From a virus (lineage: Duplodnaviria > Caudoviricetes), in the IMG/VR virus record IMGVR_UViG_3300030330_006573, positions 64,001-128,000 of that record: a stretch of 64,000 nt of DNA, one strand, 5' to 3'. Within the stretch, counting starts at the first letter, position 1; the number at the start of each line of letters is the position of its first letter. The translations under genes and the position numbers were made by a program. This document shows, one piece after another, positions 27,861 to 56,652 of the stretch. The notes beneath the pieces are model-generated. The model was given only the letters and a program-made list of their open reading frames with translations, ran no database searches and was not told the origin of the DNA.

Positions 27861-28727
27861 TTGGATTATTTCTTAGTAGATGACTCGGTTGAGGGTGTTG
27901 GTGGAACGATGCTAACCCTTGATGCTATAATCGAACCAAATCTAGAAAATGTATCTTTCATAAAAACTTCAGAATTTAGCTTAAAGGATGCCTTCAGGTC
28001 TAACTCGTTTTTTATATTCGGAAACATTATGGGTTTTTCGGCGAACTCTCTCGATGCAATAAAATATTGCATGGAAAACTCTCCTTTTGTTAAAATTGAA
28101 TTTGACTATGGGTATTGCAAAAACAGAGGTAGGATTCCTCACAAAATACTTAGCGGCACTGATTGCGATTGTCCTAAATCGCACTTGAGTGAGCTTTATG
28201 ATTTGATTAGATCAAAAAGTCTTCATATTTTCTATATGTCAAAAGGTCAAATGGAAATACATAACGAGGATCTGAAACCTATAAAAAAAGACCTTCAATC
28301 AATTCTTTCTTCTTGCTTTTTGAAATCCAACTTGTTACTATTTAATCAGTTGAAAATTAAAGAAAAAAATTCAAAGTATGCAATAATTGATGGCAACGGA
28401 GGTTGGCACAGCAAAGCTAAAGGAGTAGACCAAAGCATTGCTTATGCGGAAGAAAATAACTTTAACTACGACTTAATAAAAACAAACTCACATGTAGATT
28501 TACTGCATAAATTATCTGATTACAAGGCATTAATATCATTACCTATAATTCATGATACATGCCCAAGAATAACAATAGAAGCCAGATATATGGGACTTGA
28601 AGTAATCACTAATGACTTTTCACAACATATAACTGAAGATTGGTGGAAAGGTACTGATGAAGAAGCTTTATCATTCACATCTTCTAGGCCAGATTTCTTT
28701 TGGCAAAAAATAAAATGTTTAAACTAA
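27861..28727 (+). CDS. Glycosyltransferase, GT-B fold (GT4-like)
   Basis: AKGVD; HDTCPRITIEARYMGLEVITN. Confidence 0.7.
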   Translation: MDYFLVDDSVEGVGGTMLTLDAIIEPNLENVSFIKTSEFSLKDAFRSNSFFIFGNIMGFSANSLDAIKYCMENSPFVKIEFDYGYCKNRGRIPHKILSGTDCDCPKSHLSELYDLIRSKSLHIFYMSKGQMEIHNEDLKPIKKDLQSILSSCFLKSNLLLFNQLKIKEKNSKYAIIDGNGGWHSKAKGVDQSIAYAEENNFNYDLIKTNSHVDLLHKLSDYKALISLPIIHDTCPRITIEARYMGLEVITNDFSQHITEDWWKGTDEEALSFTSSRPDFFWQKIKCLN

Positions 28728-29443
28728 TAATACCTTGCTACGGAGATCAATCTGATAACTTAGATAATCTAGCTAAAAGTATAGACTCTCAAAAAACCGA
28801 TTTTGAAGTTGAATGTTTTTTTCTCGAAGACCAAATTTCTGAAGATTTTAGGCTGAAGCTGCAAAAGTTATGTGGAGTGCCTAATAACAAATTCTTAGTT
28901 GAAAATAATTCTGGCAAAAGACTTTTTGCCTTAAAAAATATTTGCAGATTTCTTGATTCTTTCGACTGGTCTAATGAGGAAGATGATTGCATTATAGGTC
29001 TAATAGATGGAGATGATTATTTATGGGGCAACGATTGTCTTCAAAATGTAAAAAATGAATACGACAAAGGTCATTCAGTCGTCTGGACTGGGAATGAGTG
29101 GGATAAGTTTGGCTTAAATCACTCTGGCCCTTACGAAGATAAAAATAAAGATCCATATACCCATCCTTGGGTGTCTAGCCACTTTAGAACTTTTAAACTT
29201 TCTGATTACTTTTCCATACCTAAGTCTAATTTTAAAAATAAAGATGGAGAATGGTTTGAGGCTTGTTATGACCAAGCTCTCATGCTTCCAATCCTTCATA
29301 ATATATTAAAATCTGGGGGGTCAACAAAATACATTGATAAAACCCACTACATATATCGTGGAAATGTTAAAGAGGAATCTATTTTCAGAGAGAAGCAATT
29401 GGAATATGAGTCATTCATAAGGACGAGAGGATATCTTAAATAA
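28715..29443 (+). CDS. Glycosyltransferase family 2
   Basis: LIIPCY; IDGDDYL; DQALMLP; probable start ATG 28715. Confidence 0.8.
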   Translation: MFKLIIPCYGDQSDNLDNLAKSIDSQKTDFEVECFFLEDQISEDFRLKLQKLCGVPNNKFLVENNSGKRLFALKNICRFLDSFDWSNEEDDCIIGLIDGDDYLWGNDCLQNVKNEYDKGHSVVWTGNEWDKFGLNHSGPYEDKNKDPYTHPWVSSHFRTFKLSDYFSIPKSNFKNKDGEWFEACYDQALMLPILHNILKSGGSTKYIDKTHYIYRGNVKEESIFREKQLEYESFIRTRGYLK

Positions 29444-30348
29444 TGAATTTTTACATAGACAAAATTAATAAATCAAAAGGTCCGTTCATATTCTCCACTA
29501 GATTAAAGAATGAATTAGAAAAACAAGGTTTGACCTATGATGTAGATTCTGAAAATAGATTATGCATAATCACGGGAAAATACAAAGATGGAGCTAACAA
29601 CATACTTAGACTTGATGGACTTTACCTTGATTCTGGTCATAGGCTAGGCAACAGTGCTTCTAAAAATAAACCAATTTTTAAATGTTATAAAAAATTTGAC
29701 CACATAATTTTTCAATCTATTTATGCTAAAAAAGTATACGAAGCATTTACTGAGACAGAACGCCCTAACTCAATAATACTTAATGGAGTTTGCGATTTCT
29801 TTTTCGATGAAATTGAACCAGTAAAAAAACCAGAAGGCTTTGATAAGGTAGTCGTAGCTTCCAGCACATGGAGAAGACATAAAAGAATCCAAGAATGCAT
29901 TAATGCATTTAGAGACCCTAGGTTAAAAGATGTTGCATTAGTGATTTTAGGCGGCTTCAAAAATGTTGGATTAAAGAATGTATTTTCTCTCCCTAAAATC
30001 CCTTACAATGATTTGCCTAAATACTATCAAATGGGAGATGCCATGATACACCTTTGCTGGTTAGATTGCTGTCCTAATTCTGTAGTTGAAGGTCTAGCTA
30101 GTGGCTTACCTGTTGTATGCTCTCACAACGGAGGAACGAAAGAGCTAGTCAAAGATGACGGAATAGTTATCCAGTTAGAAGAAGATTATAAATACGGAAG
30201 TATGGTAAACCTTTATAACCCTCCTAAAGTTGACACAAATATTATAGTAGAAGCTATTTTGAAATCCCTAGACATGCCAAGAGTAAAAAATAGAGACGAC
30301 TTGAAAATGTCTAACGTTGCTTTATCATACAAAAAACTATTTAAATAA
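29443..30348 (+). CDS. Glycosyltransferase family 4
   Basis: IILNGV; DCCPNSVVEGLASGLPVVCSHNGGTKELV. Confidence 0.9.
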   Translation: MNFYIDKINKSKGPFIFSTRLKNELEKQGLTYDVDSENRLCIITGKYKDGANNILRLDGLYLDSGHRLGNSASKNKPIFKCYKKFDHIIFQSIYAKKVYEAFTETERPNSIILNGVCDFFFDEIEPVKKPEGFDKVVVASSTWRRHKRIQECINAFRDPRLKDVALVILGGFKNVGLKNVFSLPKIPYNDLPKYYQMGDAMIHLCWLDCCPNSVVEGLASGLPVVCSHNGGTKELVKDDGIVIQLEEDYKYGSMVNLYNPPKVDTNIIVEAILKSLDMPRVKNRDDLKMSNVALSYKKLFK

Positions 30349-30350
30349 AA

Positions 30351-30962
30351 ATGAATGATTTAAAAGATTTTTTTAAAAATAAAACGGTAGCTATTGTCGG
30401 TAATGCCATGAACATATATAACAAAAATTACGGAGACTTAATCGACGATCATGATATCGTAGTAAGAATGAATCATGCACCAATGCAAAAACCCATAAAC
30501 GAAGGCAAAAAAACAACAATTATTGCTTTCTGCGGAGGAGGAACTGGTGCCAGGGGAGAAACTCATAATTTCAATGATCTTGCCAAAAAATTTAAAAACG
30601 CTGATATAAAAATATTAGCTTTGAACGAAAGCGGATTACTAAAAATTAGAGCAAGTAATAGATTATTAAATAATTGTTTTTTTGCTGGAGATTCCATAAA
30701 AACATATTGTAGATCTCAGACTGACGGAAAAAAACCTAGCTCTGGATGGCTGATGATGCATTATATAAATATTTGTGATAAGCCTAAATCTGTTTCTGTC
30801 TTTGGTTACGACTGGAAAAAAACTAGAAGCAATTGGCATCCAGAAGTAACAGAAAGAGATCGTGATGGAAATATTCTTTCTTCGCACACTCATCATTGGC
30901 AAAAAGAAGAAATATTATGTAAATCCATAATTAAAGAAAATAATTGGAAATTATATGAGTGA
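30351..30962 (+). CDS. GT29 (sialyltransferase)-like protein
   Basis: VAIVGNA...GDLIDDHDIVVRMN (sialylmotif L); KPSSG...VFGYD (motif S); HHWQKE (motif VS, HxxxxE). Confidence 0.78.
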   Translation: MNDLKDFFKNKTVAIVGNAMNIYNKNYGDLIDDHDIVVRMNHAPMQKPINEGKKTTIIAFCGGGTGARGETHNFNDLAKKFKNADIKILALNESGLLKIRASNRLLNNCFFAGDSIKTYCRSQTDGKKPSSGWLMMHYINICDKPKSVSVFGYDWKKTRSNWHPEVTERDRDGNILSSHTHHWQKEEILCKSIIKENNWKLYE

Positions 30963-31527
30963 AATGAATTATTCAGATTATATATCTCTACAAAAAGAAA
31001 AGACTTGTGATCCTAGGAGAAGAAAAAAATGGCTAAATGAGGAATGGGAGCTAAAACTTTTTGGCTTTAATAAAATTTTTAAAAATAATTTAGACTACAT
31101 AGGTAAAAAATGCTTGTGCATAGGAGCTAGAACAGGCCAAGAAGTTCAAGCCTTATTAGATTTAGGAAAAGACGCTATAGGAATTGACATAGTTAAATGT
31201 GAACCTTTAGTTATCGAAGGAGACTTTCATGATTTGAGTTTCGAAGATTCTTCTTTTGATTTTGTTTTTTCAAATGTAGTTGACCATGCACTATATCCTG
31301 ATAAATTTTTTTCTGAAGCAAATAGAGTCTTAAAAAATAAAGGGTTTTCACTTTATCACCTTCAAGTAAAAAAACCTAATGATAAGTACGGAGTTTTTGA
31401 TATTAATGATGTCAATGATGATGTATTAAAATATAATGAAAATTCAGAAGTTATTAAACTTTCTGATATTTATTATCCAGAGTTCAATACTTTCAACAAA
31501 GAATTAGTTTTGCAGGTAAATAAATGA
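30955..31527 (+). CDS. SAM-dependent methyltransferase
   Basis: LCIGARTGQEV; AIGIDI; GDFHDLSFEDSSFDFVFSN; EANRVLK. Confidence 0.88.
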   Translation: MSEMNYSDYISLQKEKTCDPRRRKKWLNEEWELKLFGFNKIFKNNLDYIGKKCLCIGARTGQEVQALLDLGKDAIGIDIVKCEPLVIEGDFHDLSFEDSSFDFVFSNVVDHALYPDKFFSEANRVLKNKGFSLYHLQVKKPNDKYGVFDINDVNDDVLKYNENSEVIKLSDIYYPEFNTFNKELVLQVNK

Positions 31528-32492
31528 CAGAGCCTAAAATACTTTTTTTACCTTCTTCTAGCTCTATAAGCACTGGCTCTTATAGAATTTGGATGAAAGA
31601 CTTGAGTCATTATTTATCTCAGATAAAAATCGATTCTAAAATTGGATCTAATTCTGATGTACCTGACCACAATGTAATCATATTAGGCAAAGGTAATTAT
31701 TCTGCATTAAAAAGCATAAAAAAACAAAACAAAAAAGTGGGACTAATAAATCCCGCAGGAGGTAAAAATTACAATGCTGATTTCATAATAGTGGGATCTC
31801 TTGAAGAAAGAGATAGCTTATCAATGAATAAAAATGTAATTTTATTCCCTTTGATCGAAAGACTTTTTCAAAACAAAAAAATAAAAGATCACCAAGATAA
31901 AAAAATTTTAAGACTATGCTTTCATGGTCATTACCCTCACTTATCTAAATTTGAACCTTTTTTAAAATCAGCATTAAACGAATTTTCCAAAGAGCAAGAA
32001 ATTGAACTTTTAGCAATACATGGGAACCCTAACTTTAGATGGCGACATGGAAAGCCTGATATAAAAGTTATATTTAAGAGGTGGGATATTAAAACTATCT
32101 ATGAAGATATATCTTCTTGCGATATAGGTCTCTGCCCTAATGCCACAAGTCTCCCAAGAAATATTTTACAAACATCTACAGATCTAGGTCTTTATGACAC
32201 AGATTATTCAATTCGATTTAAAAACAAATCTAATGCAGGAAGAGCTTTTGTGTTTCATCAATTAGGTATACCTGTTATCGCAGATTTAACCCCAAGTCAT
32301 TTCCATATATTGGGCAATCCCGATTGTGGGCATATTGCCATGTCTAAAGATGGCTGGTTAAATGCATTAAGAGAATTAACCTGTAAGGATCATAGGAATT
32401 TTATCGCAACTAATGCAAAAAAAGAATTTGACAAACTTTACAACCCATTAGATTGGACTCAAAAATTTTACAATAAAATATTAGAACTATGA
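31524..32492 (+). CDS. Putative glycosyltransferase (GT-B fold)
   Basis: DIGLCP; KNKSN; LGIPVIA; cluster context. Confidence 0.65.
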   Translation: MTEPKILFLPSSSSISTGSYRIWMKDLSHYLSQIKIDSKIGSNSDVPDHNVIILGKGNYSALKSIKKQNKKVGLINPAGGKNYNADFIIVGSLEERDSLSMNKNVILFPLIERLFQNKKIKDHQDKKILRLCFHGHYPHLSKFEPFLKSALNEFSKEQEIELLAIHGNPNFRWRHGKPDIKVIFKRWDIKTIYEDISSCDIGLCPNATSLPRNILQTSTDLGLYDTDYSIRFKNKSNAGRAFVFHQLGIPVIADLTPSHFHILGNPDCGHIAMSKDGWLNALRELTCKDHRNFIATNAKKEFDKLYNPLDWTQKFYNKILEL

Positions 32493-33226
32493 GCAAAGGA
32501 ATTTTATATATAGCTTTTAATGAAGCTTACATTAAAGAAGCGATTCTTTCAGCTGAATCTTTAAAAAGATTCATGCCTGAAATGCCCGTTGCATTAATAA
32601 CCAATCAAGAACTTTCTAACCCATTCATAGATCAAGTTATAATAAAAAAGATAAAACATGCAAGAAGTAAAGTCGATCTTGTTTCAGAAACTCCTTTTGA
32701 AAAGACTATTTACCTAGATTCAGACACATTGATAGTTAGAGATATTTCAGATATGTTCGAAGTTTTAGATAGATTTGATGTTGCATTTACTCATGACTAT
32801 GCAAGAAAAAGAAAAAAATACTCAAATGTAATACCTGAATACAGCGAAATTCCTTATTCTTTCTCTGAAGTGAATGGGGGAATTATGGCCTATAACAATT
32901 CCCAAAGAACTGTTGATTTCTTAGAATTATGGAAAAAATATTTTTATAAATATTACAATCAAACAAGCGGCTGGGATCAAGTCAGCTTAAGAATATCTTT
33001 GTGGAAAAGTGAAGCTCTTATACATTACTTTCCTTTTGAATATAATATAAGAAGTAAGGCTAACAGAGAAAAACAAGACAGATTTAAACGTCAATTCGGA
33101 GAACAGCATATGGCTCCAAGAATTTATCACATGCATCACAACCCAGATGTTTATAGAGGCAAATTTACAGTAAACAATTTGGAAGAACTCGAAAAAAGCT
33201 TAAAAGAACAAGCTGTTTGGTATTAA
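32489..33226 (+). CDS. GT8/GT77-like glycosyltransferase
   Basis: TIYLDSDT; VNGGIMAY; WDQVSLR; EYN. Confidence 0.8.
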   Translation: MSKGILYIAFNEAYIKEAILSAESLKRFMPEMPVALITNQELSNPFIDQVIIKKIKHARSKVDLVSETPFEKTIYLDSDTLIVRDISDMFEVLDRFDVAFTHDYARKRKKYSNVIPEYSEIPYSFSEVNGGIMAYNNSQRTVDFLELWKKYFYKYYNQTSGWDQVSLRISLWKSEALIHYFPFEYNIRSKANREKQDRFKRQFGEQHMAPRIYHMHHNPDVYRGKFTVNNLEELEKSLKEQAVWY

Positions 33227-33240
33227 AATGTAGTTCAGCG

Positions 33241-33978
33241 ATGAACGCTTATTTAGATAAAGATTTTTTAGATTATATTTCGAACAAGAAAGTGGCTCTT
33301 ATTGGCCCAGCTTCTTACTTATTAGATGATAAAATGGGAAGCTTGATTGATTCTTATGATATAGTTGTCAGGGTCGGCAGAAGCATTGAAATACTCGATA
33401 ATCATCCTGAAAACCTAGGGTTAAAAACAAATATATTATATAATTCTTGCATAGAAGACCCAAATCAGGGCGGAGATTTAAATATCGATTTATTTAAGTC
33501 TCATGGTGTAGAATGGATTTGCACAATACCCGCCTCTAGCTATAACGGGCACTGCGAAAGCAATAATCTTCCCGAAACCGTCAATCCATATTCCATAAAA
33601 AAAATTAAACAAAATTTTAATTTTCATTTAACTGATTGGAGAATTTGTGCGGAAGTAAATCGCAAACTTAAATGCAGAGGAAATACAGGTTTTGTCGCTA
33701 TTTTCGACTTGTTATATCATCAAGTCAGGGAGTTATTTATTTGTGGATATAGCTTCTATCTTGATCCCTATATCAAGGGCTACAAAAAAGGCTGCAGTAA
33801 AATAGAAGCTGATAATGTTAGGCGAACAACCTCAACCAGACATATCCAGGCAAATCATTGGCAATGCTTGAAAGAAGAGGTTGACAAAAATTCACATATT
33901 AAGGTAGATCCCTTTTTAAAAAAAATATTAGATATGGAATCATATTCGCTTAATAATTTTGCAAAACTTAGCATTTAA
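33241..33978 (+). CDS. Second GT29 (sialyltransferase)-like protein
   Basis: KKVALIGPA...GSLIDSYDIVVRVG; NTGFVAI...ICGYSFY; HIQANH; probable start ATG 33241. Confidence 0.7.
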   Translation: MNAYLDKDFLDYISNKKVALIGPASYLLDDKMGSLIDSYDIVVRVGRSIEILDNHPENLGLKTNILYNSCIEDPNQGGDLNIDLFKSHGVEWICTIPASSYNGHCESNNLPETVNPYSIKKIKQNFNFHLTDWRICAEVNRKLKCRGNTGFVAIFDLLYHQVRELFICGYSFYLDPYIKGYKKGCSKIEADNVRRTTSTRHIQANHWQCLKEEVDKNSHIKVDPFLKKILDMESYSLNNFAKLSI

Positions 33979-33990
33979 GTAATAGTATTT

Positions 33991-34917
33991 ATGAGTAAAA
34001 TATTAATTACAGGCGGTTGTGGATTCATAGGCACATCAACAGCTAATTTATTAAGGTCTGCTGGTCACGACGTCGAACTTTTGGATCTTGAGGAAAAATT
34101 TAATACAGATCATACTACTTACACAAAGCATTCAGTCGATATAAGAAATGCTGATAATTTCAAACTGTTAAATAAAAAAAAATTTGATTTCATTTTCCAC
34201 TTTGCAGCGCAAACATCAGGAGCTATATCCCAGGAAGAGCCCGAAAGAGATGCTGACATTAATGTTAAGGGCATTTTAAATGTTTGCAATTTCGCCAGAA
34301 CTTGCAAGGCTCAAAAAATAATATTCTCATCCTCTATGGCTGTATATGGAAATAAAATTGGCAAAATAAGTGAAGATGATAGCACTCTCCCAGTTTCAAA
34401 CTATGGAGCTTCCAAACTTTCTGGAGAAATATTCGTAAAGATGTTTAAGCAATTCGGTATTGATTATTCAATTTTTAGACTTTTTAATGTATATGGCCCT
34501 GGGCAGGACTTTAAAAATCTACGCCAGGGAATGGCAAGTATATTTATGGCACAATCCATCACTGGTAGCCAAATAAAAGTTACAGGATCTCTTGATAGAT
34601 ATCGAGATTTTGTTTACATTAGTGATGTTTCTGAAGCCTTAATTCTTGGCTTAGATCGTCGTACTGATTCCATGATATTAAATGTGGGTTCTGGAAAGAA
34701 AACCACAGTCAAAGAATTAATAGACATTATACTCAATACAAACGATGCAGAAAAAGATAGATTCTCTATAATTAATACGGGTGGACACGAAGGTGATCAG
34801 TTTGGGTCTCTTTCTGACATCTCTAAGATTTCTGAAATTGGATGGTCGCCTAAAATTTCACTAGAAAAAGGTATATCATTAATGTATAATAAAGCAAAGG
34901 CAGATCTTGCATCGTGA
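33991..34917 (+). CDS. NAD-dependent nucleotide-sugar epimerase/dehydratase
   Basis: ITGGCGFIG; SSSMAVYG; YGASK; FNVYGPGQ. Confidence 0.92.
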   Translation: MSKILITGGCGFIGTSTANLLRSAGHDVELLDLEEKFNTDHTTYTKHSVDIRNADNFKLLNKKKFDFIFHFAAQTSGAISQEEPERDADINVKGILNVCNFARTCKAQKIIFSSSMAVYGNKIGKISEDDSTLPVSNYGASKLSGEIFVKMFKQFGIDYSIFRLFNVYGPGQDFKNLRQGMASIFMAQSITGSQIKVTGSLDRYRDFVYISDVSEALILGLDRRTDSMILNVGSGKKTTVKELIDIILNTNDAEKDRFSIINTGGHEGDQFGSLSDISKISEIGWSPKISLEKGISLMYNKAKADLAS

Positions 34918-35624
34918 ATATAGTATCATTAATAACTGGCAGGGGCAACAACACCCTAAAAGATAAAAACATCTTGCCCGTTCTGAGCAAAGAATTATTA
35001 ACTTATCCCGCTCATTCAGCTAAAAGTGTGGATTTGATTAATCATTTTTATGCCAGCAGCGATGACGACAACATTCTTAATGTAGCCTCTTCTGTAGGTT
35101 ATAAAAAAATTAAACGCCCTCCAGAGTTGAGTACCCCTACATCTCAGCACATTGATGCTATTTTCCATGCTGTAAAATTTATAAAAGAAAAGGATAATAT
35201 AGATCCAGACATTTTAATTGTGCATCTTGCTAATTCCGTGACCGTCAAGCCTCAGTGGATCGAACAAGCAATTAAGGATATCATTTCCGACCCAAGTATC
35301 TCTTCTGTTGTTCCTGTGTACCAAGAACAAAGCCATCACCCCTATAGAGCCAAGACAACAAACAAAGACGGCTTCCTGGAAACTTTTTTTAATTTTACCG
35401 ATACCGAAGTGTCAACTAACCGTCAAGATTTAACCTCTTGCTATTTTTTATGTCATAATTTTTGGGTATTAAATATGAAAAATTCTCTGTTTTCCGAAGG
35501 CGGTCAAAAGCCTTGGGTTTTTTTAGGCAATAAGATTAAGCCGATTGTTGTAGATGAATGCTTTGATGTTCATTGCATTGAAGATTTAAAAAGATGCGAA
35601 GAATGGATTCTTAAAAATAATTAA
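34914..35624 (+). CDS. Acylneuraminate/ulosonate cytidylyltransferase (NeuA/KdsB family)
   Basis: LITGRGNNTLKDKNI; ASSDD; IKRPPELS; FDVHCIEDL. Confidence 0.85.
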   Translation: MNIVSLITGRGNNTLKDKNILPVLSKELLTYPAHSAKSVDLINHFYASSDDDNILNVASSVGYKKIKRPPELSTPTSQHIDAIFHAVKFIKEKDNIDPDILIVHLANSVTVKPQWIEQAIKDIISDPSISSVVPVYQEQSHHPYRAKTTNKDGFLETFFNFTDTEVSTNRQDLTSCYFLCHNFWVLNMKNSLFSEGGQKPWVFLGNKIKPIVVDECFDVHCIEDLKRCEEWILKNN

Positions 35625-35629
35625 AATTC

Positions 35630-36697
35630 ATGGAAGACACTCAAGAAACACTTAAATTGGAGACCCTAGATTGCACCTTGAGAGATGGGGGATATATTAA
35701 CAATTGGGAATTTTCTGACGAAGAAGTTTTATCGTGCTACCAGGCGGTGTCTTTATCTGGTATAGATTATTTTGAAATAGGTTTTAAATCTAAAAAAGAA
35801 TCTGGCCCTAAAAAAGGTAGTTGGTGGCATTCTACAGATCAAGACATAAATAGAATTTATAATAAATATCAAAACTCAAAAAGATGCAAGATTGCTGCTA
35901 TGATCTATTCTGAATATGACACTCTTGATTCTTTTTTACCTAAAACTAGTTCCAAAATAGATCTAGTCAGAATACTAGTTGGGCATAATAACCCTCTTCA
36001 ACTTAAGAGTGTTGACCACAAGCAAGCCCAAAAATGCAAAGAGTTATCGCAGGGCTTACTAGACCTAGGTTATGAAGTCGCTGTTAATCTTGCTTGCATA
36101 GATAAAATTCATAAATCTAAGTTGGATATTTTTTTCGAGGAACTTAGCGACATTCCATTGAAATGTATTTATATAGCTGATACATATGGAGCTATAGACG
36201 AGATCTCTGTTTTGGAACATATTGATCGAGTTTCAGAATATGGATTCAAAGTAGGGGTTCATACTCACAACAATCAAAACGATGCCCTATCAAAAACAAA
36301 AGTAGCTTTAAATTGTCCGAATGTCTCTATAGTGGACGGCTGTATTGGGGGTCTTGGTCGAGGAGCAGGTAATTGCAATAGTGAATTATTGGTTTTATAT
36401 TTGTCTAAAACATCGCCAAATAAATATAATGCAGATCCCCTAATAATACATTATGATAAATATATTAGAAGCTCTAGCGAATACCTGGCAAATAAATTAT
36501 GCTACAGCTATCACCCTCTGTATGCTTATGCCGCCCACTTTGGCATTCATCCTAATTTTGCTGACGAGCTAATAAGAGCTTCGAGCATCCATATACCCGA
36601 AAAGCTCGACTTATTACGTAATATAGACCATCATTGCCGCTCTACGAATAAATATTCTTACGACAAAAATTTAATTACTCAGTTGTCGAATGAATAA
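35630..36697 (+). CDS. DRE-TIM metalloaldolase (HMGL-like / 4-hydroxy-2-oxovalerate aldolase family)
   Basis: LDCTLRDGGY; IADTYG; GVHTHNN; GLGRGAGN. Confidence 0.88.
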   Translation: MEDTQETLKLETLDCTLRDGGYINNWEFSDEEVLSCYQAVSLSGIDYFEIGFKSKKESGPKKGSWWHSTDQDINRIYNKYQNSKRCKIAAMIYSEYDTLDSFLPKTSSKIDLVRILVGHNNPLQLKSVDHKQAQKCKELSQGLLDLGYEVAVNLACIDKIHKSKLDIFFEELSDIPLKCIYIADTYGAIDEISVLEHIDRVSEYGFKVGVHTHNNQNDALSKTKVALNCPNVSIVDGCIGGLGRGAGNCNSELLVLYLSKTSPNKYNADPLIIHYDKYIRSSSEYLANKLCYSYHPLYAYAAHFGIHPNFADELIRASSIHIPEKLDLLRNIDHHCRSTNKYSYDKNLITQLSNE

Positions 36698-37799
36698 CAT
36701 AGAAGACTTTTATTCCGATTACGGAAATCCTCCTGAATTTTTAACCTCACAATACAAAAAGTTTCTTGAGGGAAATGCATTTAAAACCCCCAAAGGGGTT
36801 CAACGTTATGCTGAAGCAAATATTCCCTTTGAAATAAAAGAAGAGTGGGTCTCAGATATAAAACTTAATATTCTTATGGCTCACTTTAAGCCATTCAAAA
36901 ATGAACTTGATGCTCTTGATTACCCTGTTTTTTTATCTAAAATATGGCCCAATTCAAATATCCATTTAACTTACGATAAATCTCCAAAAATCTATCCTCC
37001 TTCATTTACAATCAAGGATGGTAAAATAAAGCAGATAGACAAGCTTCTACCTTCGTATGATATTATCATTGGCAGATCAGGAGTTCTTTCTGTCATGGCC
37101 AATCGACCAGAAACTTCAAAAATTCCCAGCAGATCAAAGTTTAAAGTTCAAATGAGAAGCATGGGCTATCATCGCAACACAATAGGCTATGATCTTATTT
37201 TCAAAGACGAGTATGTTAGTCCACCGCCCTCTCCAGTTTATAGAAACAATGCTCTTCAGGTTCTTAATAGCACAAAAAAAAGAAAAGTTATTTTATTTGC
37301 TGGATCTCTATCTGGATGGAAAAATCAACAATCTTTTATTGAGATGCTTGACCCTGACTTATGCAAAGACTTTTCTTTTTTATTTTTAGGCAAAGGGCCG
37401 AAAGCTCGCGCGGTATCTCAACGCTGCAAAGAAAAAGGATTTCGGCACTATATGGGATGGGCAAATCACGCATACATGCCCTTTTTTACATCCATATCCC
37501 GCCTTAATGTAAACAATACAGACTCTCGTGCTTGGGGTCAGCCTTATGACCCTAACCCTAGAGTATTAGGAGAAGCAGCAGTGTCCAATACCCACTCTAT
37601 TTGCTCTAAATTGACTCTTTTTAATAATGATTTAAATAATTATGTTACTTCTTACGACCACGAGTGCACCTCCAGTCTTAATAGAGTCTTCGATCAATCT
37701 CTTCGGATTGATTGTTCAATTTATAATAAAGAATTTAAGACTCTTGAAGAAAAATGTTATGAGATTACTCAGGCTATTTTAACTCACTTTTTCAAATAA
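36690..37799 (+). CDS. Putative glycosyltransferase (GT-B fold)
   Basis: ILFAGSLSGWKNQ; FLGKG; DPNPRVLGEA. Confidence 0.6.
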   Translation: MNNIEDFYSDYGNPPEFLTSQYKKFLEGNAFKTPKGVQRYAEANIPFEIKEEWVSDIKLNILMAHFKPFKNELDALDYPVFLSKIWPNSNIHLTYDKSPKIYPPSFTIKDGKIKQIDKLLPSYDIIIGRSGVLSVMANRPETSKIPSRSKFKVQMRSMGYHRNTIGYDLIFKDEYVSPPPSPVYRNNALQVLNSTKKRKVILFAGSLSGWKNQQSFIEMLDPDLCKDFSFLFLGKGPKARAVSQRCKEKGFRHYMGWANHAYMPFFTSISRLNVNNTDSRAWGQPYDPNPRVLGEAAVSNTHSICSKLTLFNNDLNNYVTSYDHECTSSLNRVFDQSLRIDCSIYNKEFKTLEEKCYEITQAILTHFFK

Positions 37800-37824
37800 A
37801 ATAAAAATGTAAACGAAATTTAAA

Positions 37825-38811
37825 ATGCATATAATAAGCGATAAAGACCTTTATGAACAGTACTATTTCTCCAAGTCGCTAATTTTGGACGATAAAAATT
37901 ATAGAAAAATAAGAAATGACAATTTTAAGCCAGACAAGTATATCGGGCTACTAAATAAGGAAGGCACCGAGTTTACCCCTTTAGTTTGCAAGAATAATAT
38001 GGTGTCATTTTACGGGGGGTTTTTTTATAATGAACCTAATTATATTTATCCCAAGACAGTAAACGAAGTCTTGAATTACCTTTTGAAAAAAAAATATAAT
38101 TTTAGACTTCTAAATTTAGAAAAAGATATTTTTAATGAATTAAATTATGACTTAAGAAAGTATGACGTACCTTACAAACAAAACTGGAGCATAAACTCCA
38201 TAAAAAATTTTGACGAAAACGCTCATTTCTTAAAATTAAAAAAATTAAACAAAAAAAAATCAGATAGATTTAGGAGAGCTATAATAAAACAAGATCAATA
38301 TTGCATAGAAAGACTTTTGCCGTCGAACAAAAAGAAAATTAAATACCTAGTAGATTTAATAAGCAAATCTTTTAAAAAGAGGGGCTTGCCTCGCTATGAG
38401 TGGCTCGATAACAAATTATTATTTGAAATATTAGATTTTTTTCACAAACAAAACAATTTATACTTTTTCACAATGCACCACTCCAAACAAAAAGATGTGG
38501 GCTGGTTTTGCTTTGTCAAAAACAACAATTGCATGCAAAATATCTTATTCAATGTAATAAACAGGATCTATGAGAACGACGTTTTCATTTTGTTTATAAA
38601 AATGTTGGGAGTTCTAAGAAAATCTGATGCAGAACGTTTCGACTTCATGAGCGGCAATTTTGGATACAAAGATATTTGCGGCTGTACTTATAAGCCTTTA
38701 TTTGCACTAGTAAATGACCCAAAGTGGAAAAATGAATACAATAAAGATGTAGAAAAAAAACATATTCTTTCCAAAATAAATAGAGACTACGGATGCTTCG
38801 CCCAAAAATAA
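37825..38811 (+). CDS. GNAT-family acyltransferase-like protein
   Basis: C-terminal RFDFMSGNFGYK resembles Acetyltransf_6/FemAB-like GNATs. Confidence 0.5.
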   Translation: MHIISDKDLYEQYYFSKSLILDDKNYRKIRNDNFKPDKYIGLLNKEGTEFTPLVCKNNMVSFYGGFFYNEPNYIYPKTVNEVLNYLLKKKYNFRLLNLEKDIFNELNYDLRKYDVPYKQNWSINSIKNFDENAHFLKLKKLNKKKSDRFRRAIIKQDQYCIERLLPSNKKKIKYLVDLISKSFKKRGLPRYEWLDNKLLFEILDFFHKQNNLYFFTMHHSKQKDVGWFCFVKNNNCMQNILFNVINRIYENDVFILFIKMLGVLRKSDAERFDFMSGNFGYKDICGCTYKPLFALVNDPKWKNEYNKDVEKKHILSKINRDYGCFAQK

Positions 38812-39440
38812 AAAAAGATCTTATAATTTTTGTTGCCCATATTGACGATGTCGAATGTGCGGCATACGGCTATTTATTTAAACATTGCAATGAATACGAT
38901 AAGATAAAAATTATTACAGCAACAACATGGAGTGAAAAAGAGCCTGTATGGGAAGAAAATATAAGTAATTTACCTATTGAAATTAATTCTAAATTAGTGG
39001 ATATTAATCTAGGATTTGAACAAAGAACTTTATTTAATAATTTAGACAAGGTCAAAGATTGTTTTTACAAAACTATTGATTTTAACAAAAGATTCGATCT
39101 TCTTACTCATGATCACGATGATTCACACACAGACCATGTCGCATTGAGCTTTATATGCAAGGGTATGTATAAATACTGTAGTCGTTATGTTACTTTATAC
39201 TCTCCATCTAGTGTTAATTTTCAAAGTAATTACTATATAGGTATTGATGGCGATCTTTATGATCTTAAAAAGAAAGCTTTAGATAGATATGACATCAATA
39301 AAGATCAGTCTTATACAAAATGGGGATATTACCTACAAAGCGAAGAGCATTACAATATAGGACGAGCTCATGTTTTAGAAAATTTTGCCTTTGACGACTA
39401 TCAAACATATGAAATATACAAAATAATGAAGTGGTTATGA
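38793..39440 (+). CDS. PIG-L/LmbE family deacetylase
   Basis: AHIDDVE and DSHTDH metal-binding motifs. Confidence 0.85.
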   Translation: MLRPKIKKDLIIFVAHIDDVECAAYGYLFKHCNEYDKIKIITATTWSEKEPVWEENISNLPIEINSKLVDINLGFEQRTLFNNLDKVKDCFYKTIDFNKRFDLLTHDHDDSHTDHVALSFICKGMYKYCSRYVTLYSPSSVNFQSNYYIGIDGDLYDLKKKALDRYDINKDQSYTKWGYYLQSEEHYNIGRAHVLENFAFDDYQTYEIYKIMKWL

Positions 39441-39480
39441 GAGAGTTAGATATATTAATGATTGATCGCCCCCAAAAATC

Positions 39481-40059
39481 TTGAAAGCAACAATCCATCA
39501 ACCCGAACACTTTCCATACATGGGGTTTTTTCAAAAAATTTCCCAAGCGGATATATTTGTGGTATTAGACAATGTTAATTATAGAAAAAATTATTTTCAA
39601 AATCGCAATAAAATAAAATTAAAAGATGGTAGAGATGACTGGATTACCGTTCCAGTTGAAAAAAAGGCTACTTCTAAACATATTAATTGTATTAGGGTGT
39701 CTCCAGATACTCAATGGAGAATCAAGCTATTGAATAAAATTAGGCAAAATTTAGACATTGACATGCAAGAAGTATATTCCCATTCTAAGCTAATTGACAT
39801 TAATATGGACAGCATTCGTTGGGCTATGAGGCAAATGGGTATTGAAAGAGATATGGTTTTTGCGAGCACATTGGGTGTCAAGGGCAGCAAATCCCAGCTA
39901 CTAGCAAACATCCTCAGAAAAATTGGTGCTACAAAATATATAAGTGGGCCATCAGGCAAGGACTATTTAGATATGAATTACTTCAATGGAATAGAGGTTG
40001 ATTTTTTTGAACCTCATGTGCAAAACTACTATTCTTGCTTATACAATTTAAAAACTTAA
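39481..40059 (+). CDS. WbqC-like protein
   Basis: IHQPEHFPYMGFFQKI; FQNRNKI; ITVPV; YISGPSGKDYL. Confidence 0.9.
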   Translation: MKATIHQPEHFPYMGFFQKISQADIFVVLDNVNYRKNYFQNRNKIKLKDGRDDWITVPVEKKATSKHINCIRVSPDTQWRIKLLNKIRQNLDIDMQEVYSHSKLIDINMDSIRWAMRQMGIERDMVFASTLGVKGSKSQLLANILRKIGATKYISGPSGKDYLDMNYFNGIEVDFFEPHVQNYYSCLYNLKT

Positions 40060-40099
40060 TAAATAGATAGAAATTTATTGATAAAAAATTACAATAACT

Positions 40100-41041
40100 A
40101 TGAAATATACAGTAACAGGCGGAGCAGGCTTCATTGGAAGTAATCTAGTAGATCAATTGATTAATGACGGACATGAAGTTGTGGTCATTGATTCTTTAGT
40201 TACAGGAAAAAAAGAAAACATAAACCCAAAAGCTGAATTTGTTCAAGCTGACATAAATGCTTGCAGGCAGGGAACTGTCGCATTATCTGCATACACAGAA
40301 AGGGTAGAGCAATCTATTAAAGGTAGCGATGCTATCTTTCATTTAGCAGCCCTTGCTAGGGTACAGCCATCAATAGAAGATCCAGTTACTTTCAATGATA
40401 CAAATGTTAATGGCACATTAAATATGTTAGTCATGGCCCAGAAGCTTGGAATAAAGCGTTTTGTTTATAGTGCATCTTCTTCTGCCTATGGTAATGCTAA
40501 AATCTTTCCAACTCCAGAAACTCATCCGACAAACCCATTAAGTCCATATGGCTTACAAAAGTTAATTGGAGAACAATACTGTAAAGTTTTCTCTATTTGC
40601 TATGGACTAGAAACAGTTTGCCTTAGATATTTCAATGTATTTGGAGAGCGTCAATCGCTAGAAGGTGCATACTGCTTAGTGATGGGAATCTTTGCCAATC
40701 AAAGGTTAAAAGGTGAGCCTATGACAATTGTTGGAGATGGTGAACAAAGAAGAGATTTTACATATGTTGGCGATGTTGTAAGGGCAAATATTTCAGCATC
40801 TCAATCAGATAAAGTCGGATATGGAGAAGTTATAAATATTGGTAATGGTGATAATCGTTCCGTAAATGATCTTGCAGATTTAATAGGTGGCCCAAGGGTT
40901 AATATTGAATCTCGACTCGAACCGAAACAAACACTTGCTGACAACTCTAAGGCTAAGGAATTATTAAACTGGAGTCCTTCAGTAACTTTAGAAGAGTGGA
41001 TTCCGAAGTACAAGCAAGAACTTGGATTAAAAGATGAGTAA
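40100..41041 (+). CDS. NAD-dependent epimerase (UDP-hexose/HexNAc 4-epimerase-like)
   Basis: VTGGAGFIGS; SASSSAYG; PYGLQK; LRYFNVFG; GDGEQRRDF. Confidence 0.92.
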   Translation: MKYTVTGGAGFIGSNLVDQLINDGHEVVVIDSLVTGKKENINPKAEFVQADINACRQGTVALSAYTERVEQSIKGSDAIFHLAALARVQPSIEDPVTFNDTNVNGTLNMLVMAQKLGIKRFVYSASSSAYGNAKIFPTPETHPTNPLSPYGLQKLIGEQYCKVFSICYGLETVCLRYFNVFGERQSLEGAYCLVMGIFANQRLKGEPMTIVGDGEQRRDFTYVGDVVRANISASQSDKVGYGEVINIGNGDNRSVNDLADLIGGPRVNIESRLEPKQTLADNSKAKELLNWSPSVTLEEWIPKYKQELGLKDE

Positions 41042-50100: not shown

Positions 50101-50451
50101 GTGTCCAAATTAGAGACATCAAAGAATATTGGGCCTCACCCATTCTACTCCATAAATGGAGCGACTACCCCTACCCATAGTCGCACTCAAGATGTCGGAA
50201 ATTTCACAAAGCATAGTTATCAAGTTATATGCGATAATGTCGGAGCATCTGCAGAGATATCTTTTTATATTTTTGGCAAAAATGAGCTTACTTCAAAATG
50301 GCAAAAAGTTGCTGGTTATTTAATAACCAGTGCTCGTAATAATAATGGAATCCTATATTTTGATTGTTGGAATTTTAATTTTGCAAAATGTTGTGCTATA
50401 GGCACTTTTGGCGGAGCTACAATTACTGTTATAGAAAAGCATAATGCCTAG
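50101..50451 (+). CDS. Small beta-sandwich protein, paralogue 2
   Basis: Same motifs as the preceding ORF; overlaps the start of the next gene. Confidence 0.7.
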   Translation: MSKLETSKNIGPHPFYSINGATTPTHSRTQDVGNFTKHSYQVICDNVGASAEISFYIFGKNELTSKWQKVAGYLITSARNNNGILYFDCWNFNFAKCCAIGTFGGATITVIEKHNA

Positions 50452-56621: not shown

Positions 56622-56646
56622 ATTTATTAAGCCTTGTTAATATCAT
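56618..56646 (+). promoter_or_regulatory. sigma70-type leaderless promoter (TTGAAT-17-TATCAT)
   Basis: -10 ends 6 nt before GTG 56653. Confidence 0.6.
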
Positions 56647-56652
56647 ATTCTC

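What the first reader, a model, noticed from the sequence alone, without database searches (positions are those of the whole stretch)
30351..36697. NeuB-independent ulosonic-acid (sialic-acid-like) pathway with two GT29-like transferases
Seen: adjacent epimerase (33991), NeuA/KdsB-family cytidylyltransferase (34914) and DRE-TIM aldolase (35630), plus two ORFs with sialylmotif-L-like starts (30351, 33241); no neuB, neuC or kdsA in the window. Established: aldolases of this family act on pyruvate and an aldehyde, cytidylyltransferases activate 2-keto-3-deoxy acids, and GT29 uses CMP-sugars. Inference: the aldolase condenses pyruvate with an aldose to make a possibly novel ulosonic acid, which is CMP-activated and transferred by the phage GT29s.
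Basis: partly seen in the sequence, partly recalled or inferred. Interest (0 to 1): 0.8.

Follow-up and report, generated by a model that had tools for sequence, protein, structure and literature searches.

The report
Phage aldolase route to CMP-acid-sugar
An uncultured 180-kb marine phage carries genes to activate and transfer a sialic-acid- or Kdo-like acidic sugar but lacks the usual enzyme that makes such sugars. A pyruvate aldolase, which is fused to the activating enzyme in many relatives, most likely makes it by a route no paper I found describes.

Summary
ORF 30351 is a true PF00777 (GT29) hit with all four sialylmotifs. ORF 33241 belongs to a divergent GT29 branch: confident model, top fold matches all mammalian sialyltransferases. 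ORFs 33991, 34914 and 35630 are a GalE-like SDR, a NeuA/PseF-like cytidylyltransferase and a DRE-TIM (HMGL-like) aldolase with its metal and pyruvate ligands intact. The whole 180-kb phage has no NeuB, NeuC, KdsA, SIS, KdsC-type HAD or HpcH gene.

- The aldolase is fused or adjacent to a cytidylyltransferase in 40 of 80 viral loci and 37 of 80 metagenome loci.
- One giant-virus protein is KdsC-like phosphatase + SDR + cytidylyltransferase + aldolase, with the last three domains in the window's gene order.
- In 18 syntenic sister islands the same slot holds an unrelated HpcH pyruvate aldolase (14), this aldolase (1) or NeuB (1).
- 43 of 48 phage records with a GT29-like gene carry a cytidylyltransferase.

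The sugar and the acceptor are unknown.

This scan found HpcH-type versions before in other phages. The DRE-TIM version, its fusions and the three-way slot replacement are added here. No paper describing the route was found.

The parts
27861..28727 (+). First gene of the glycan island; unknown, soluble
   Evidence: No Pfam hit. Homologues sit at the same position in sister phage islands L164-L178. No TM segment.
28700..29443 (+). Unknown conserved island gene
   Evidence: No Pfam hit. Conserved in sister islands.
29443..30348 (+). GT4 (GT-B) glycosyltransferase
   Evidence: PF00534, 48.6 bits.
30351..30962 (+). GT29a: minimal 203-aa soluble sialyltransferase-family enzyme
   Evidence: PF00777, 53.5 bits against cut-off 23. 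Motifs L, S, III-like and VS are readable. Matches ST3Gal-I 2wml at E 6e-7. The model's best folds are GT29. Only 4 other protein clusters were found and none in IMG/VR.
30955..31527 (+). SAM-dependent methyltransferase
   Evidence: PF08241, 49.2 bits. Present in some sister islands.
31524..32492 (+). Probable GT-B glycosyltransferase; part of the conserved triad upstream of GT29b
   Evidence: No Pfam hit. Its nearest Atlas clusters are viral 'glycosyltransferase family' and Glyco_trans_1_2. It lies upstream of the NT_32489 homologue (32489-33226) in 14 of 16 sister islands (L163-L178); that gene abuts GT29b in all but L174.
32489..33226 (+). GT-A type 'Nucleotid_trans' glycosyltransferase
   Evidence: PF03407, 24.7 bits against cut-off 22. 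40-63% identical homologues lie upstream of GT29b in all 16 sister islands L163-L178, adjacent to it in all but L174.
33241..33978 (+). GT29b: divergent GT29-fold transferase (ORF open from TTG 33217)
   Evidence: PF00777, 20.7 bits, below the cut-off. The family has 1178 relatives, and 56 of 60 sampled hit PF00777. The model has pLDDT 94, and its top Foldseek hits, about 30, are almost all mammalian GT29. hhalign to the GT29a family gives 98.9%. H209 is invariant among its 12 closest relatives and at least 90% conserved in the 60-member alignment.
33991..34917 (+). GalE-like extended SDR (epimerase/oxidoreductase) of the module
   Evidence: PF01370, E 6.7e-45. Best PDB match is 4zrm, a UDP-glucose 4-epimerase. 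It is the best window match to the SDR domain of the 4-domain fusion in L002: 37% identity, 154 bits, against 103 bits for the next SDR.
34914..35624 (+). NeuA/PseF-like cytidylyltransferase (CMP-sugar synthetase)
   Evidence: PF02348, 31.7 bits against 22.6. PseF model 57.5 bits, KdsB models 21 bits or less, all below their cut-offs. 6ifd CMP-NeuAc synthetase E 8e-17, and no KdsB hit. N-terminal ITGRGNNTLKDKN loop. It is the only CTP_transf_3 gene in the genome.
35630..36697 (+). DRE-TIM (HMGL-like) class II pyruvate aldolase; proposed ulosonate synthase
   Evidence: PF00682, 59.3 bits. D14, R18, D19, H211 and H213 are invariant. Nearest solved structures are 3dxi and the 4-hydroxy-2-oxovalerate aldolases. 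It lies in a 34-member subclade (SH-like support 87) in which about 26 members carry N-terminal extensions; those scanned hold a cytidylyltransferase domain.
36690..37799 (+). Weak GT4-like glycosyltransferase
   Evidence: PF13692, 21.3 bits, below the cut-off. Conserved in sister islands.
37825..38811 (+). Unknown island gene
   Evidence: No Pfam hit. One homologue, in L165.
38793..40059 (+). PIG-L-like deacetylase (38793-39440) and WbqC-family protein (39481-40059)
   Evidence: PF02585, 23.7 bits, below the cut-off; PF08889, 155.5 bits. The pair is conserved in L165, L178 and L180.
40100..43922 (+). Four SDR-type nucleotide-sugar enzymes, including a GDP-mannose 4,6-dehydratase (41034-42059); end of the island
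   Evidence: PF01370 and PF16363 hits.

Best explanation
Genes 33991-36697 form a make-and-activate module for a 3-deoxy-2-ulosonic (Kdo- or sialic-acid-like) sugar.

1. The metal-dependent DRE-TIM aldolase (35630) condenses pyruvate with an aldose or aldose phosphate from host metabolism. This does the job that PEP-dependent NeuB or KdsA does in every described pathway.
2. If the product is phosphorylated, a host KdsC-type phosphatase would free it. The phage has none, whereas fused relatives carry one.
3. The NeuA/PseF-like cytidylyltransferase (34914) converts the acid to its CMP-sugar. This irreversible step pulls the reversible aldol reaction forward.
4. The GalE-like SDR (33991) alters the configuration or oxidation state of the sugar, probably at the nucleotide-sugar level.
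5. The two soluble, anchor-less GT29-fold enzymes (30351, 33241) transfer the sugar. They act as part of a 19-gene, all-cytoplasmic glycan island with no lipid-carrier, flippase or polymerase genes. This points to direct glycosylation of a soluble acceptor, most plausibly a phage protein.

Shown: the family assignments, the conserved catalytic residues, the absence of canonical synthases, the fusions, the slot replacement and the co-occurrence. Inferred: the direction and substrates of the aldolase, the role of the SDR, the donor used by the GT29s, and the acceptor.
For: (1) Fusions link the aldolase to the cytidylyltransferase.
- 13 of the 19 best non-close relatives in the protein database (P0004-P0022) carry PF00682 + PF02348 in one chain, with the cytidylyltransferase N-terminal, as in the window's gene order.
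- Of 80 viral loci, 36 are fused and 4 adjacent.
- Of 80 metagenome loci, 2 are fused and 35 directly adjacent.
- At least five architectures occur: HAD-CMP-ALD, HAD-SDR-CMP-ALD, CMP-ALD-GT2, ALD-CMP and ALD-x-CMP.

(2) The 1069-aa giant-virus protein in L002 is HAD-SDR-CMP-ALD. Its SDR domain best matches window SDR 33991. Its HAD domain best matches ulosonate-phosphate phosphatases: mouse CMAS C-domain 3ewi, YrbI 3mn1, the Bacteroides chains 3e81/4hgo (which I recall to be the Kdn-9-P phosphatase) and KdsC 2r8e, with E 1e-22 to 1e-16.

(3) Non-orthologous replacement in the same slot. Among 18 sister phage records with the same island synteny, the position beside the cytidylyltransferase holds:
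- an HpcH/HpaI pyruvate aldolase in 14, directly adjacent in 12;
- the HMGL aldolase in 1 (G016/L178);
- NeuB in 1 (G012).
The HpcH proteins are closest to HpaI and to the 2-keto-3-deoxy-sugar aldolase YfaU.

(4) 43 of 48 viral records with a GT29b-like gene have CTP_transf_3, including 6 of 6 complete ones. GT29-like genes lie within 10 kb of the aldolase in 9 viral loci, all of which have a cytidylyltransferase domain.

(5) The phage genome has no NeuB, NeuC, KdsA, SIS, Hydrolase_3 or HpcH gene.

(6) The aldolase keeps its metal and pyruvate ligands. Both GT29s have the GT29 fold and motifs.

(7) GT29 enzymes are not limited to nine-carbon sugars. The plant GT29 RCKT1/MGP2 is the putative CMP-Kdo transferase (PMC11288761).
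Against: - No biochemistry exists for any member of this aldolase clade.
- The phage lacks the phosphatase and isomerase that relatives carry, so the pathway is incomplete without host help.
- Four of six complete GT29b-bearing phages have a cytidylyltransferase but no synthase of any kind. Activation of a host-made sugar is therefore clearly a workable lifestyle.
- A sister viral aldolase clade sits with a DegT aminotransferase, a TPP enzyme and a methyltransferase, with no cytidylyltransferase detected. The bacterial clade has housekeeping neighbours. The family is therefore not tied to one job.
- The window's cytidylyltransferase is too divergent to align with the fused ones by BLAST.
- The co-occurrence figures have no measured background rate.
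Confidence: 0.68

Rival explanations
1. The cytidylyltransferase and the GT29s use a host-made ulosonic acid (Kdo, or a host nonulosonic acid). The aldolase has a side role, such as salvage, supplying an aldehyde or keto-acid building block, or making a non-sugar substituent.
For: The phage has no isomerase or phosphatase. Four of six complete GT29b phages carry a cytidylyltransferase with no synthase at all. In the giant virus CroV, a NeuA-like rather than KdsB-like enzyme is assigned to CMP-Kdo synthesis (PMC9614988), so NeuA-likeness does not exclude Kdo.
Against: The repeated aldolase-cytidylyltransferase fusions and their tight adjacency argue for consecutive steps. The same slot holds HpcH aldolase or NeuB in sister islands. 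KdsB models score 21 bits or less, and no KdsB structure matches.
Confidence: 0.14
2. The module does make a CMP-activated acid, but the GT29-fold proteins are not its users. They use another donor or have another activity of the MptE/SteA-like superfold, and a different island transferase takes the CMP-sugar.
For: Only 9 of about 42 viral aldolase-cytidylyltransferase loci have a GT29-like gene within 10 kb. Other relatives are fused or adjacent to GT2 or MptE-like domains. Foldseek also lists SteA and HPPK among weaker matches.
Against: 43 of 48 GT29b-bearing records have a cytidylyltransferase. GT29b is separated from the module only by a 12-nt gap. The sialylmotifs, including the motif-VS histidine, are conserved. 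All top fold matches are CMP-sugar transferases.
Confidence: 0.1
3. The aldolase works in the cleavage direction (a lyase for host Kdo or sialic acid), or is a Claisen-type synthase of the isopropylmalate/citramalate kind, unrelated to glycan synthesis.
For: DRE-TIM enzymes include lyases and acetyl-CoA-dependent synthases. Weak NCBIfam hits to homocitrate and citramalate synthases were seen.
Against: The best matches are aldolases, not Claisen synthases. Fusion to an activating enzyme and to a KdsC-like phosphatase makes no sense for catabolism. The gene is embedded among glycosyltransferases.
Confidence: 0.04

Closest known systems
Canonical CMP-Kdo pathway (KdsD isomerase, KdsA Kdo-8-P synthase, KdsC phosphatase, KdsB cytidylyltransferase), including the fused bifunctional version predicted in the giant virus CroV (PMC9614988)
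   Same: The logic is the same: aldose phosphate plus a C3 unit gives an ulosonate phosphate, which is dephosphorylated and then CMP-activated. Fused relatives carry a KdsC-family HAD domain, some sister islands carry weak SIS-like genes, and a NeuA-like enzyme may serve as activator, as proposed for CroV.
   Different: No KdsA (PF00793) is present. The C-C bond is proposed to be made by a pyruvate-dependent class II aldolase rather than a PEP-dependent synthase. An SDR is part of the module. The transferases are GT29-fold rather than GT30 (WaaA) or GT99/107 Kdo transferases.
Nonulosonic-acid pathways (NeuB/PseI/LegI synthase, NeuA/PseF/LegF cytidylyltransferase, sialyltransferase)
   Same: The cytidylyltransferase is closest to NeuA/PseF. 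The transferases belong to the sialyltransferase family. One sister island uses NeuB in the same slot.
   Different: NeuB and NeuC are absent from the genome. No aminotransferase or acetyltransferase of the Pse/Leg type lies adjacent. The synthase is replaced by an unrelated fold and a different chemistry.
Class II pyruvate aldolases BphI/DmpG (DRE-TIM) and HpaI/YfaU (HpcH), known as convergent enzymes of aromatic and sugar-acid catabolism (recalled from the literature, not checked here)
   Same: Same fold and metal/pyruvate ligands as BphI/DmpG. The sister islands' enzyme is closest to HpaI/YfaU. Both families make or cleave 4-hydroxy-2-oxo acids.
   Different: There is no partner acylating dehydrogenase and no catabolic operon. 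The scores are far below the equivalog cut-off (56 against 286 bits). The position after the RDG motif holds Tyr (DCTLRDGGY), which I recall to be His in BphI. The context is biosynthetic, with fusion to a cytidylyltransferase.
Eukaryotic GT29 sialyltransferases (ST3Gal-I, ST6GalNAc2, ST8SiaIII) and the plant GT29 RCKT1/MGP2 (putative CMP-Kdo transferase, PMC11288761)
   Same: Sialylmotifs and GT-A variant fold. The plant case gives a precedent for a GT29 enzyme tied to a non-sialic ulosonic acid.
   Different: The phage proteins are 203-245 aa with no membrane anchor or stem. They lack the motif-L cysteine of the L-S disulfide. They are phage-encoded and presumably cytoplasmic.
Laboratory one-pot three-enzyme sialylation (sialic acid aldolase + CMP-sialic acid synthetase + sialyltransferase), recalled from the chemoenzymatic literature, not checked here
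   Same: The same three-step logic, with the reversible aldolase pulled forward by CTP-dependent activation.
   Different: That system is an artificial combination that uses a class I (NanA) lyase. Here a natural gene cassette uses class II aldolases.

Membership tests
GT29 / PF00777 (ORF 30351) | Pfam model score above the gathering cut-off | tested here: met
   53.5 bits against 23, covering profile positions 55-270 of 272.
GT29 / PF00777 (ORF 30351) | Sialylmotifs L, S, III and VS, with the catalytic His in VS | tested here: met
   The motifs are VAIVGN..IDDHDIVVRMN, KPSSGWL..VSVFGYDW, SNWH and HTHHWQKEE. They align to ST3Gal-I motifs and are invariant across 5 homologues.
GT29 / PF00777 (ORF 30351) | GT-A variant sialyltransferase fold | tested here: met
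   The model is only moderate (pLDDT 71). Its top Foldseek hits are ST3Gal-I, ST6GalNAc2 and ST8SiaIII, probability 1.0, TM about 0.5.
GT29 / PF00777 (both ORFs) | Type II membrane anchor, stem region and the L-S motif disulfide of eukaryotic members | tested here: not met
   No hydrophobic segment. There is no Cys before VGN in motif L. This fits a cytoplasmic enzyme.
GT29 / PF00777 (ORF 33241) | Pfam model score above the gathering cut-off | tested here: not met
   20.7 bits against 23, motif-L region only. However, 56 of 60 family members hit PF00777 at E 0.01 or better, best 3.8e-15.
GT29 / PF00777 (ORF 33241) | Sialyltransferase fold and profile-level homology to a bona fide GT29 | tested here: met
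   pLDDT 94. Foldseek top hits are 6apl, 5bo9, 2wnf and 4mps, probability 1.0. hhalign to the GT29a family gives 98.9%, E 4e-17.
GT29 (both ORFs) | Use of a CMP-activated ulosonic acid donor | not testable with these tools
   Only indirect evidence: CTP_transf_3 occurs in 43 of 48 GT29b-bearing viral records.
CTP_transf_3 (NeuA/KdsB/PseF cytidylyltransferases) | Pfam score above the cut-off, and the N-terminal Arg/Lys CTP-binding loop | tested here: met
   31.7 bits against 22.6. ITGRGNNTLKDKN is present at the N-terminus. Full-length match to 6ifd, E 8e-17.
PseF, NeuA or KdsB equivalogs (specific substrate classes) | NCBIfam equivalog/subfamily cut-offs | tested here: not met
   PseF 57.5 bits against 205.7. 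KdsB models 15.6-20.8 bits against 193-255.
DRE-TIM metallolyase / HMGL-like | Pfam score above the cut-off, plus the D-x-x-x-R-D and H-x-H metal and substrate ligands | tested here: met
   59.3 bits against 29. D14, R18, D19, H211 and H213 are invariant in 20 sequences.
4-hydroxy-2-oxovalerate aldolase (BphI/DmpG) | Equivalog score, and a partner acylating aldehyde dehydrogenase gene | tested here: not met
   56 bits against 286. The neighbours are a cytidylyltransferase and a GT, not a dehydrogenase.
Canonical NulO/Kdo biosynthesis | PEP-dependent synthase (NeuB PF03102 or KdsA PF00793) | tested here: not met
   No match in the whole 180-kb genome. Controls were positive in 9 and 11 of 14 genomes respectively.
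Canonical NulO/Kdo biosynthesis | KdsC/Neu-9-P-type HAD phosphatase | tested here: not met
   Absent from the phage. Present as a domain fused to the aldolase in relatives L001, L002, L003 and L005.

The most novel reading that the evidence does not exclude
Marine phages and giant viruses use a biosynthetic logic for CMP-ulosonic acids that has not been described. A class II pyruvate aldolase replaces the PEP-dependent synthase. It has been recruited at least twice from unrelated folds (DRE-TIM here, HpcH in sister phages) and is interchangeable with NeuB in one genomic slot. The product would be a previously unknown acidic sugar, placed on phage proteins by minimal cytoplasmic GT29 enzymes. 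These enzymes would also represent a viral or prokaryotic reservoir of the 'eukaryotic' sialyltransferase family.
Probability: 0.4. Interest if true: 0.85.

Novelty: new variant of a known kind. Interest (0 to 1): 0.72.

Why it matters
- **Pathway chemistry.** Every textbook route to sialic acids, Kdo and their bacterial cousins starts with a PEP-dependent NeuB/KdsA-type synthase. Genome mining for these sugars relies on that gene. If pyruvate aldolases can take its place, such surveys miss a class of producers, and the chemical space of CMP-sugars is wider than assumed.
- **GT29 origins.** GT29, usually treated as a eukaryotic family, would have abundant tiny soluble relatives in phages: about 1,200 representative clusters for the GT29b branch. 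These would be useful for studying the family's origin and as small cytoplasmic catalysts.
- **Testability.** The natural aldolase-synthetase fusions mirror the one-pot enzymatic systems chemists already use. The claim can therefore be tested directly with three synthetic genes.
- **Phage biology.** It points to self-encoded acidic glycan decoration in ocean phages.

Tried and rejected
- Contexts of the closest aldolase relatives (93, 82 and 67% identity) and of the GT29a relatives could not be fetched.
- **Cultured phages.** blastn of the region against GenBank phages found nothing. tblastn of GT29b found nothing, and tblastn of the aldolase found only one unannotated 5-kb fragment. No cultured phage is available as a model.
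- **Single-protein scans.** Scans of viral contigs with the aldolase and with GT29a found nothing. The one metagenome scan gave no close relatives, the best being 35% identical.
- **Bacterial reference genomes.** The 80 best aldolase loci form a separate clade. Their neighbours are housekeeping genes (tyrS, carA, aroC), and only 2 of 80 have a cytidylyltransferase within 7 kb. I rejected them as a guide to function.
- **Giant-virus neighbourhoods.** These are not operon-like and gave no clue to the substrate.
- **Promoter and terminator scan.** Counts in the island were no higher than in shuffles.
- **Literature.** Searches for an aldolase plus cytidylyltransferase route, for phage GT29, and for HpcH plus ulosonic acids found no description. 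The library lacks most subscription journals, so absence is not proof.
- **Identity of the sugar.** Reading it from NeuA-likeness against KdsB-likeness of the cytidylyltransferase was rejected as unsafe, because CroV's presumed CMP-Kdo synthetase is also NeuA-like.

Full report
**Setting**

The window is bases 64001-128000 of a 179,985-bp IMG/VR virus record that CheckV rates 100% complete. It is a tailed phage: it has a tape-measure-like protein, tail proteins, class I ribonucleotide reductase, SSB, dUTPase and a dNMP kinase. GC content is about 33%. The closest protein relatives come from marine metagenomes (GOS and Tara names).

Nineteen co-directional genes run from 27861 to 43922. Gaps are 40 nt or less, and many stop and start codons overlap. 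All 19 products lack a hydrophobic segment. No flippase, polymerase or lipid-carrier transferase was seen.

**Observation check**

- ORF 30351-30962 (203 aa) scores 53.5 bits on PF00777 against a cut-off of 23.
  - It aligns to pig ST3Gal-I in sialylmotifs L and S.
  - It also shows SNWH and HTHHWQKEE, which correspond to motifs III and VS. These are invariant in its four known homologues.
  - A moderate model (pLDDT 71) has ST3Gal-I, ST6GalNAc2 and ST8SiaIII as best fold matches, followed by the GT42 enzyme CstII.
- ORF 33241-33978 scores only 20.7 bits, below the cut-off.
  - An exhaustive HMMER search found 1178 relatives, and 56 of 60 sampled hit PF00777.
  - Its model (pLDDT 94) matches mammalian GT29 structures in nearly all of about the first thirty places.
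  - Profile-profile comparison with the family of ORF 30351 gives 98.9% probability over 181 columns.
- ORF 33991 is a GalE-like extended SDR.
- ORF 34914 is a CTP_transf_3 enzyme. It is closest to CMP-NeuAc synthetases and PseF, it does not hit KdsB structures, and it falls below every NCBIfam equivalog cut-off.
- ORF 35630 is an HMGL-like (DRE-TIM) protein. It is closest to the uncharacterised 3dxi and to 4-hydroxy-2-oxovalerate aldolases. D14, R18, D19, H211 and H213 are invariant.
- The whole genome lacks NeuB, NeuC-type epimerase, KdsA, SIS isomerase, Hydrolase_3 phosphatase and HpcH aldolase. It has one cytidylyltransferase and two GT29-like genes.

**The aldolase is functionally tied to the cytidylyltransferase**

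- In the 5.8-billion-protein database, beyond three close relatives, the next best hits are about 590-aa proteins carrying PF02348 and PF00682 together. The cytidylyltransferase is N-terminal, the same order as the window's genes.
- Among the 80 best viral loci, 36 have the two domains fused and 4 have them adjacent.
- Among the 80 best metagenome loci, 2 are fused and 35 are adjacent on the same strand.
- The architectures are diverse:
  - HAD-CMP-ALD;
  - HAD-SDR-CMP-ALD;
  - CMP-ALD-GT2;
  - ALD-CMP;
  - ALD-unknown domain-CMP;
  - ALD-MptE-like.
- A tree places the window's aldolase in a 92-row clade of viral and metagenomic sequences (SH-like support 99). Within it, the window sits in a 34-row subclade (support 87) dominated by proteins with N-terminal extensions. 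The extensions that were scanned hold a cytidylyltransferase domain.
- The 1069-aa giant-virus protein in L002 (HAD-SDR-CMP-ALD) reproduces the window's SDR, cytidylyltransferase and aldolase in order. Its SDR domain matches window SDR 33991 better than any other SDR in the window: 154 bits against 103.
- Its HAD domain is most similar to ulosonate-phosphate phosphatases: KdsC/YrbI, the Bacteroides 3e81/4hgo chains (which I recall to be the Kdn-9-P phosphatase) and the phosphatase-like domain of mouse CMP-sialic acid synthetase. E-values are 1e-22 to 1e-16. This is the strongest single indication that the aldolase product in this clade is a phosphorylated 3-deoxy-2-ulosonic acid.

**The aldolase sits where a synthase should sit**

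I collected 80 viral loci encoding GT29b relatives. Sixteen of them (L163-L178) share the window's island order:

o27861, o28700, GT4, (methyltransferase), o31524, PF03407 transferase, GT29b, variable slot, GT4-like, PIG-L, WbqC, SDRs.

Whole-record family searches on 48 of these records gave the following counts:

| Family | Records with a hit (of 48) |
|---|---|
| CTP_transf_3 | 43 (6 of 6 complete genomes) |
| NeuB | 9 |
| HMGL-like | 2 |
| HpcH/HpaI (above cut-off) | 16 |

In the 18 closest records (G001-G018), 14 have an HpcH aldolase. In 12 of these it directly follows the cytidylyltransferase. One record (G016/L178) has the HMGL aldolase there. One (G012/L174) has NeuB instead. Two have neither.

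In L166 the slot reads cytidylyltransferase, HpcH aldolase, D-2-hydroxyacid dehydrogenase, SDR. The HpcH protein is closest to HpaI and to the 2-keto-3-deoxy-sugar aldolase YfaU.

So two unrelated pyruvate aldolase folds and the canonical PEP-dependent synthase alternate in one position beside the activating enzyme. The simplest reading is that all three supply the acid that the cytidylyltransferase activates.

**Link to the GT29s**

The evidence has three parts:
- the 43-of-48 co-occurrence;
- the immediate adjacency in the window, where GT29b ends 12 nt before the SDR;
- the nine viral aldolase loci that have a GT29-like gene within 10 kb, all with a cytidylyltransferase domain.

Other relatives pair the module with GT2 or MptE/Maf-like domains, so the transferase partner varies. 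GT29a has no orthologue in the sister islands. It is very rare: four other clusters, and none in IMG/VR.

Published work supports GT29 members acting on an eight-carbon ulosonic acid. Loss of the Arabidopsis GT29 RCKT1/MGP2 removes Kdo from rhamnogalacturonan II (PMC11288761).

**Proposed mechanism, and what is only inferred**

1. The aldolase condenses pyruvate with a host aldose or aldose phosphate.
2. A host phosphatase acts on the product if one is needed.
3. The cytidylyltransferase makes the CMP-sugar and drives the equilibrium forward.
4. The SDR changes stereochemistry or oxidation state.
5. The GT29s, together with the island's GT4, GT-A and GT-B enzymes, build a glycan in the cytoplasm.

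The carbon number and configuration of the sugar are unknown. The product could be Kdo itself made by another route. The acceptor is unknown. Because there is no membrane machinery, I favour a protein. The Thr/Pro-rich 1568-aa protein at 50444-55150, flagged by other first-stage notes, is a candidate that I did not test.

**Caveats**

- No member of this aldolase clade has been assayed.
- Four complete GT29b phages have a cytidylyltransferase but no synthase at all, so using a host sugar is viable.
- A sister viral aldolase clade lies with DegT, a TPP enzyme, a TylF methyltransferase and a different HAD.
- The bacterial clade has housekeeping neighbours.
- CroV's presumed CMP-Kdo synthetase is NeuA-like (PMC9614988), so the cytidylyltransferase type does not identify the sugar.
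- I could not measure background frequencies for the co-occurrence counts.

**Novelty**

- Six literature searches found no description of an aldolase plus cytidylyltransferase route or of phage GT29 enzymes.
- A 2022 review of giant-virus glycans that discusses Kdo pathways does not contain the word aldolase.
- This scan has already reported HpcH-type cassettes in other marine phages. I reached the HpcH result independently from the sister islands before reading those notes.
- New here:
  - the DRE-TIM version of the pathway;
  - its many fusions, including the four-domain giant-virus protein with a KdsC-type domain;
  - the three-way replacement (HpcH, DRE-TIM, NeuB) within one syntenic slot.
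- I class it as a new variant of a known kind. The make, CMP-activate and transfer logic is that of the Kdo and sialic acid pathways, with the committing enzyme replaced by a different fold and a different chemistry.

Noticed in passing
window 50444-55150 and 55182-59087: A 1568-aa ORF, described by other first-stage notes as mucin-like with Thr/Pro linkers, is followed by further glycosyltransferase-like genes. ORF 55182 hits a PHROG 'galactosyl transferase'. It is a candidate acceptor for the island's glycan.
   Followed up: no
L008:3388-12012 and about 55 related viral/metagenome sequences: A sister clade of unfused viral aldolases sits in a different context: DegT aminotransferase, three-domain TPP enzyme, TylF-like methyltransferase, HAD_2 phosphatase, then the aldolase. 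No cytidylyltransferase was detected. This may be a different sugar-modification pathway using the same aldolase family.
   Followed up: partly
L320:675-2297, L308:9995-11611, L284:9959-11596, L282:2092-4407, L307:155-2461: Many metagenome aldolases are 535-565 aa, with an unassigned domain of about 200 aa after the HMGL domain. They are followed by, or (in the 770-aa forms) fused to, a cytidylyltransferase. The extra domain has no Pfam match.
   Followed up: partly
L081-L160 (bacterial reference genomes): Aldolases of about 330 aa from the 3dxi family form their own clade in Paenibacillus, Neobacillus, Lachnospiraceae, Arcobacter, Opitutales and others. They lie next to housekeeping genes (tyrS, carA, aroC, trpA), so this is an uncharacterised conserved bacterial enzyme.
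   Followed up: partly
window 31524-33226; L163-L178: A probable GT-B gene and a PF03407 'Nucleotid_trans' gene usually precede GT29b in the sister islands. The PF03407 homologue is found in all 16 (adjacent to GT29b in all but L174), and the GT-B homologue in 14 of 16. They may act as a fixed three-transferase unit. I recall that PF03407 covers plant GT77 RG-II xylosyltransferases (not checked here), which would make two plant-pectin-type families side by side in a phage.
   Followed up: partly
L166:12094-13113; L164:12023-13027, L170:4548-5531, L175:12046-13047: HpcH-type sister islands carry a D-2-hydroxyacid dehydrogenase, or an ORF of about 330 aa with weak, sub-threshold SIS-domain similarity, right after the aldolase. 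These are possible precursor-supply enzymes that the window's phage lacks.
   Followed up: partly
L004:9290-11851, L288:4123-5493, L094:9863-11686, L050:10935-11720: Further fusions or neighbours link the module to transferases: cytidylyltransferase-aldolase-GT2, GT2-cytidylyltransferase, aldolase-MptE-like (sub-threshold), and a weak MptE-like gene right after a cytidylyltransferase-aldolase fusion.
   Followed up: partly
window 38793-43922: A PIG-L-like deacetylase and a WbqC-family protein (a pair conserved in L165, L178 and L180), plus GDP-mannose 4,6-dehydratase and three more SDRs, indicate at least one further modified-sugar pathway (a 6-deoxy or amino sugar) in the same island.
   Followed up: no
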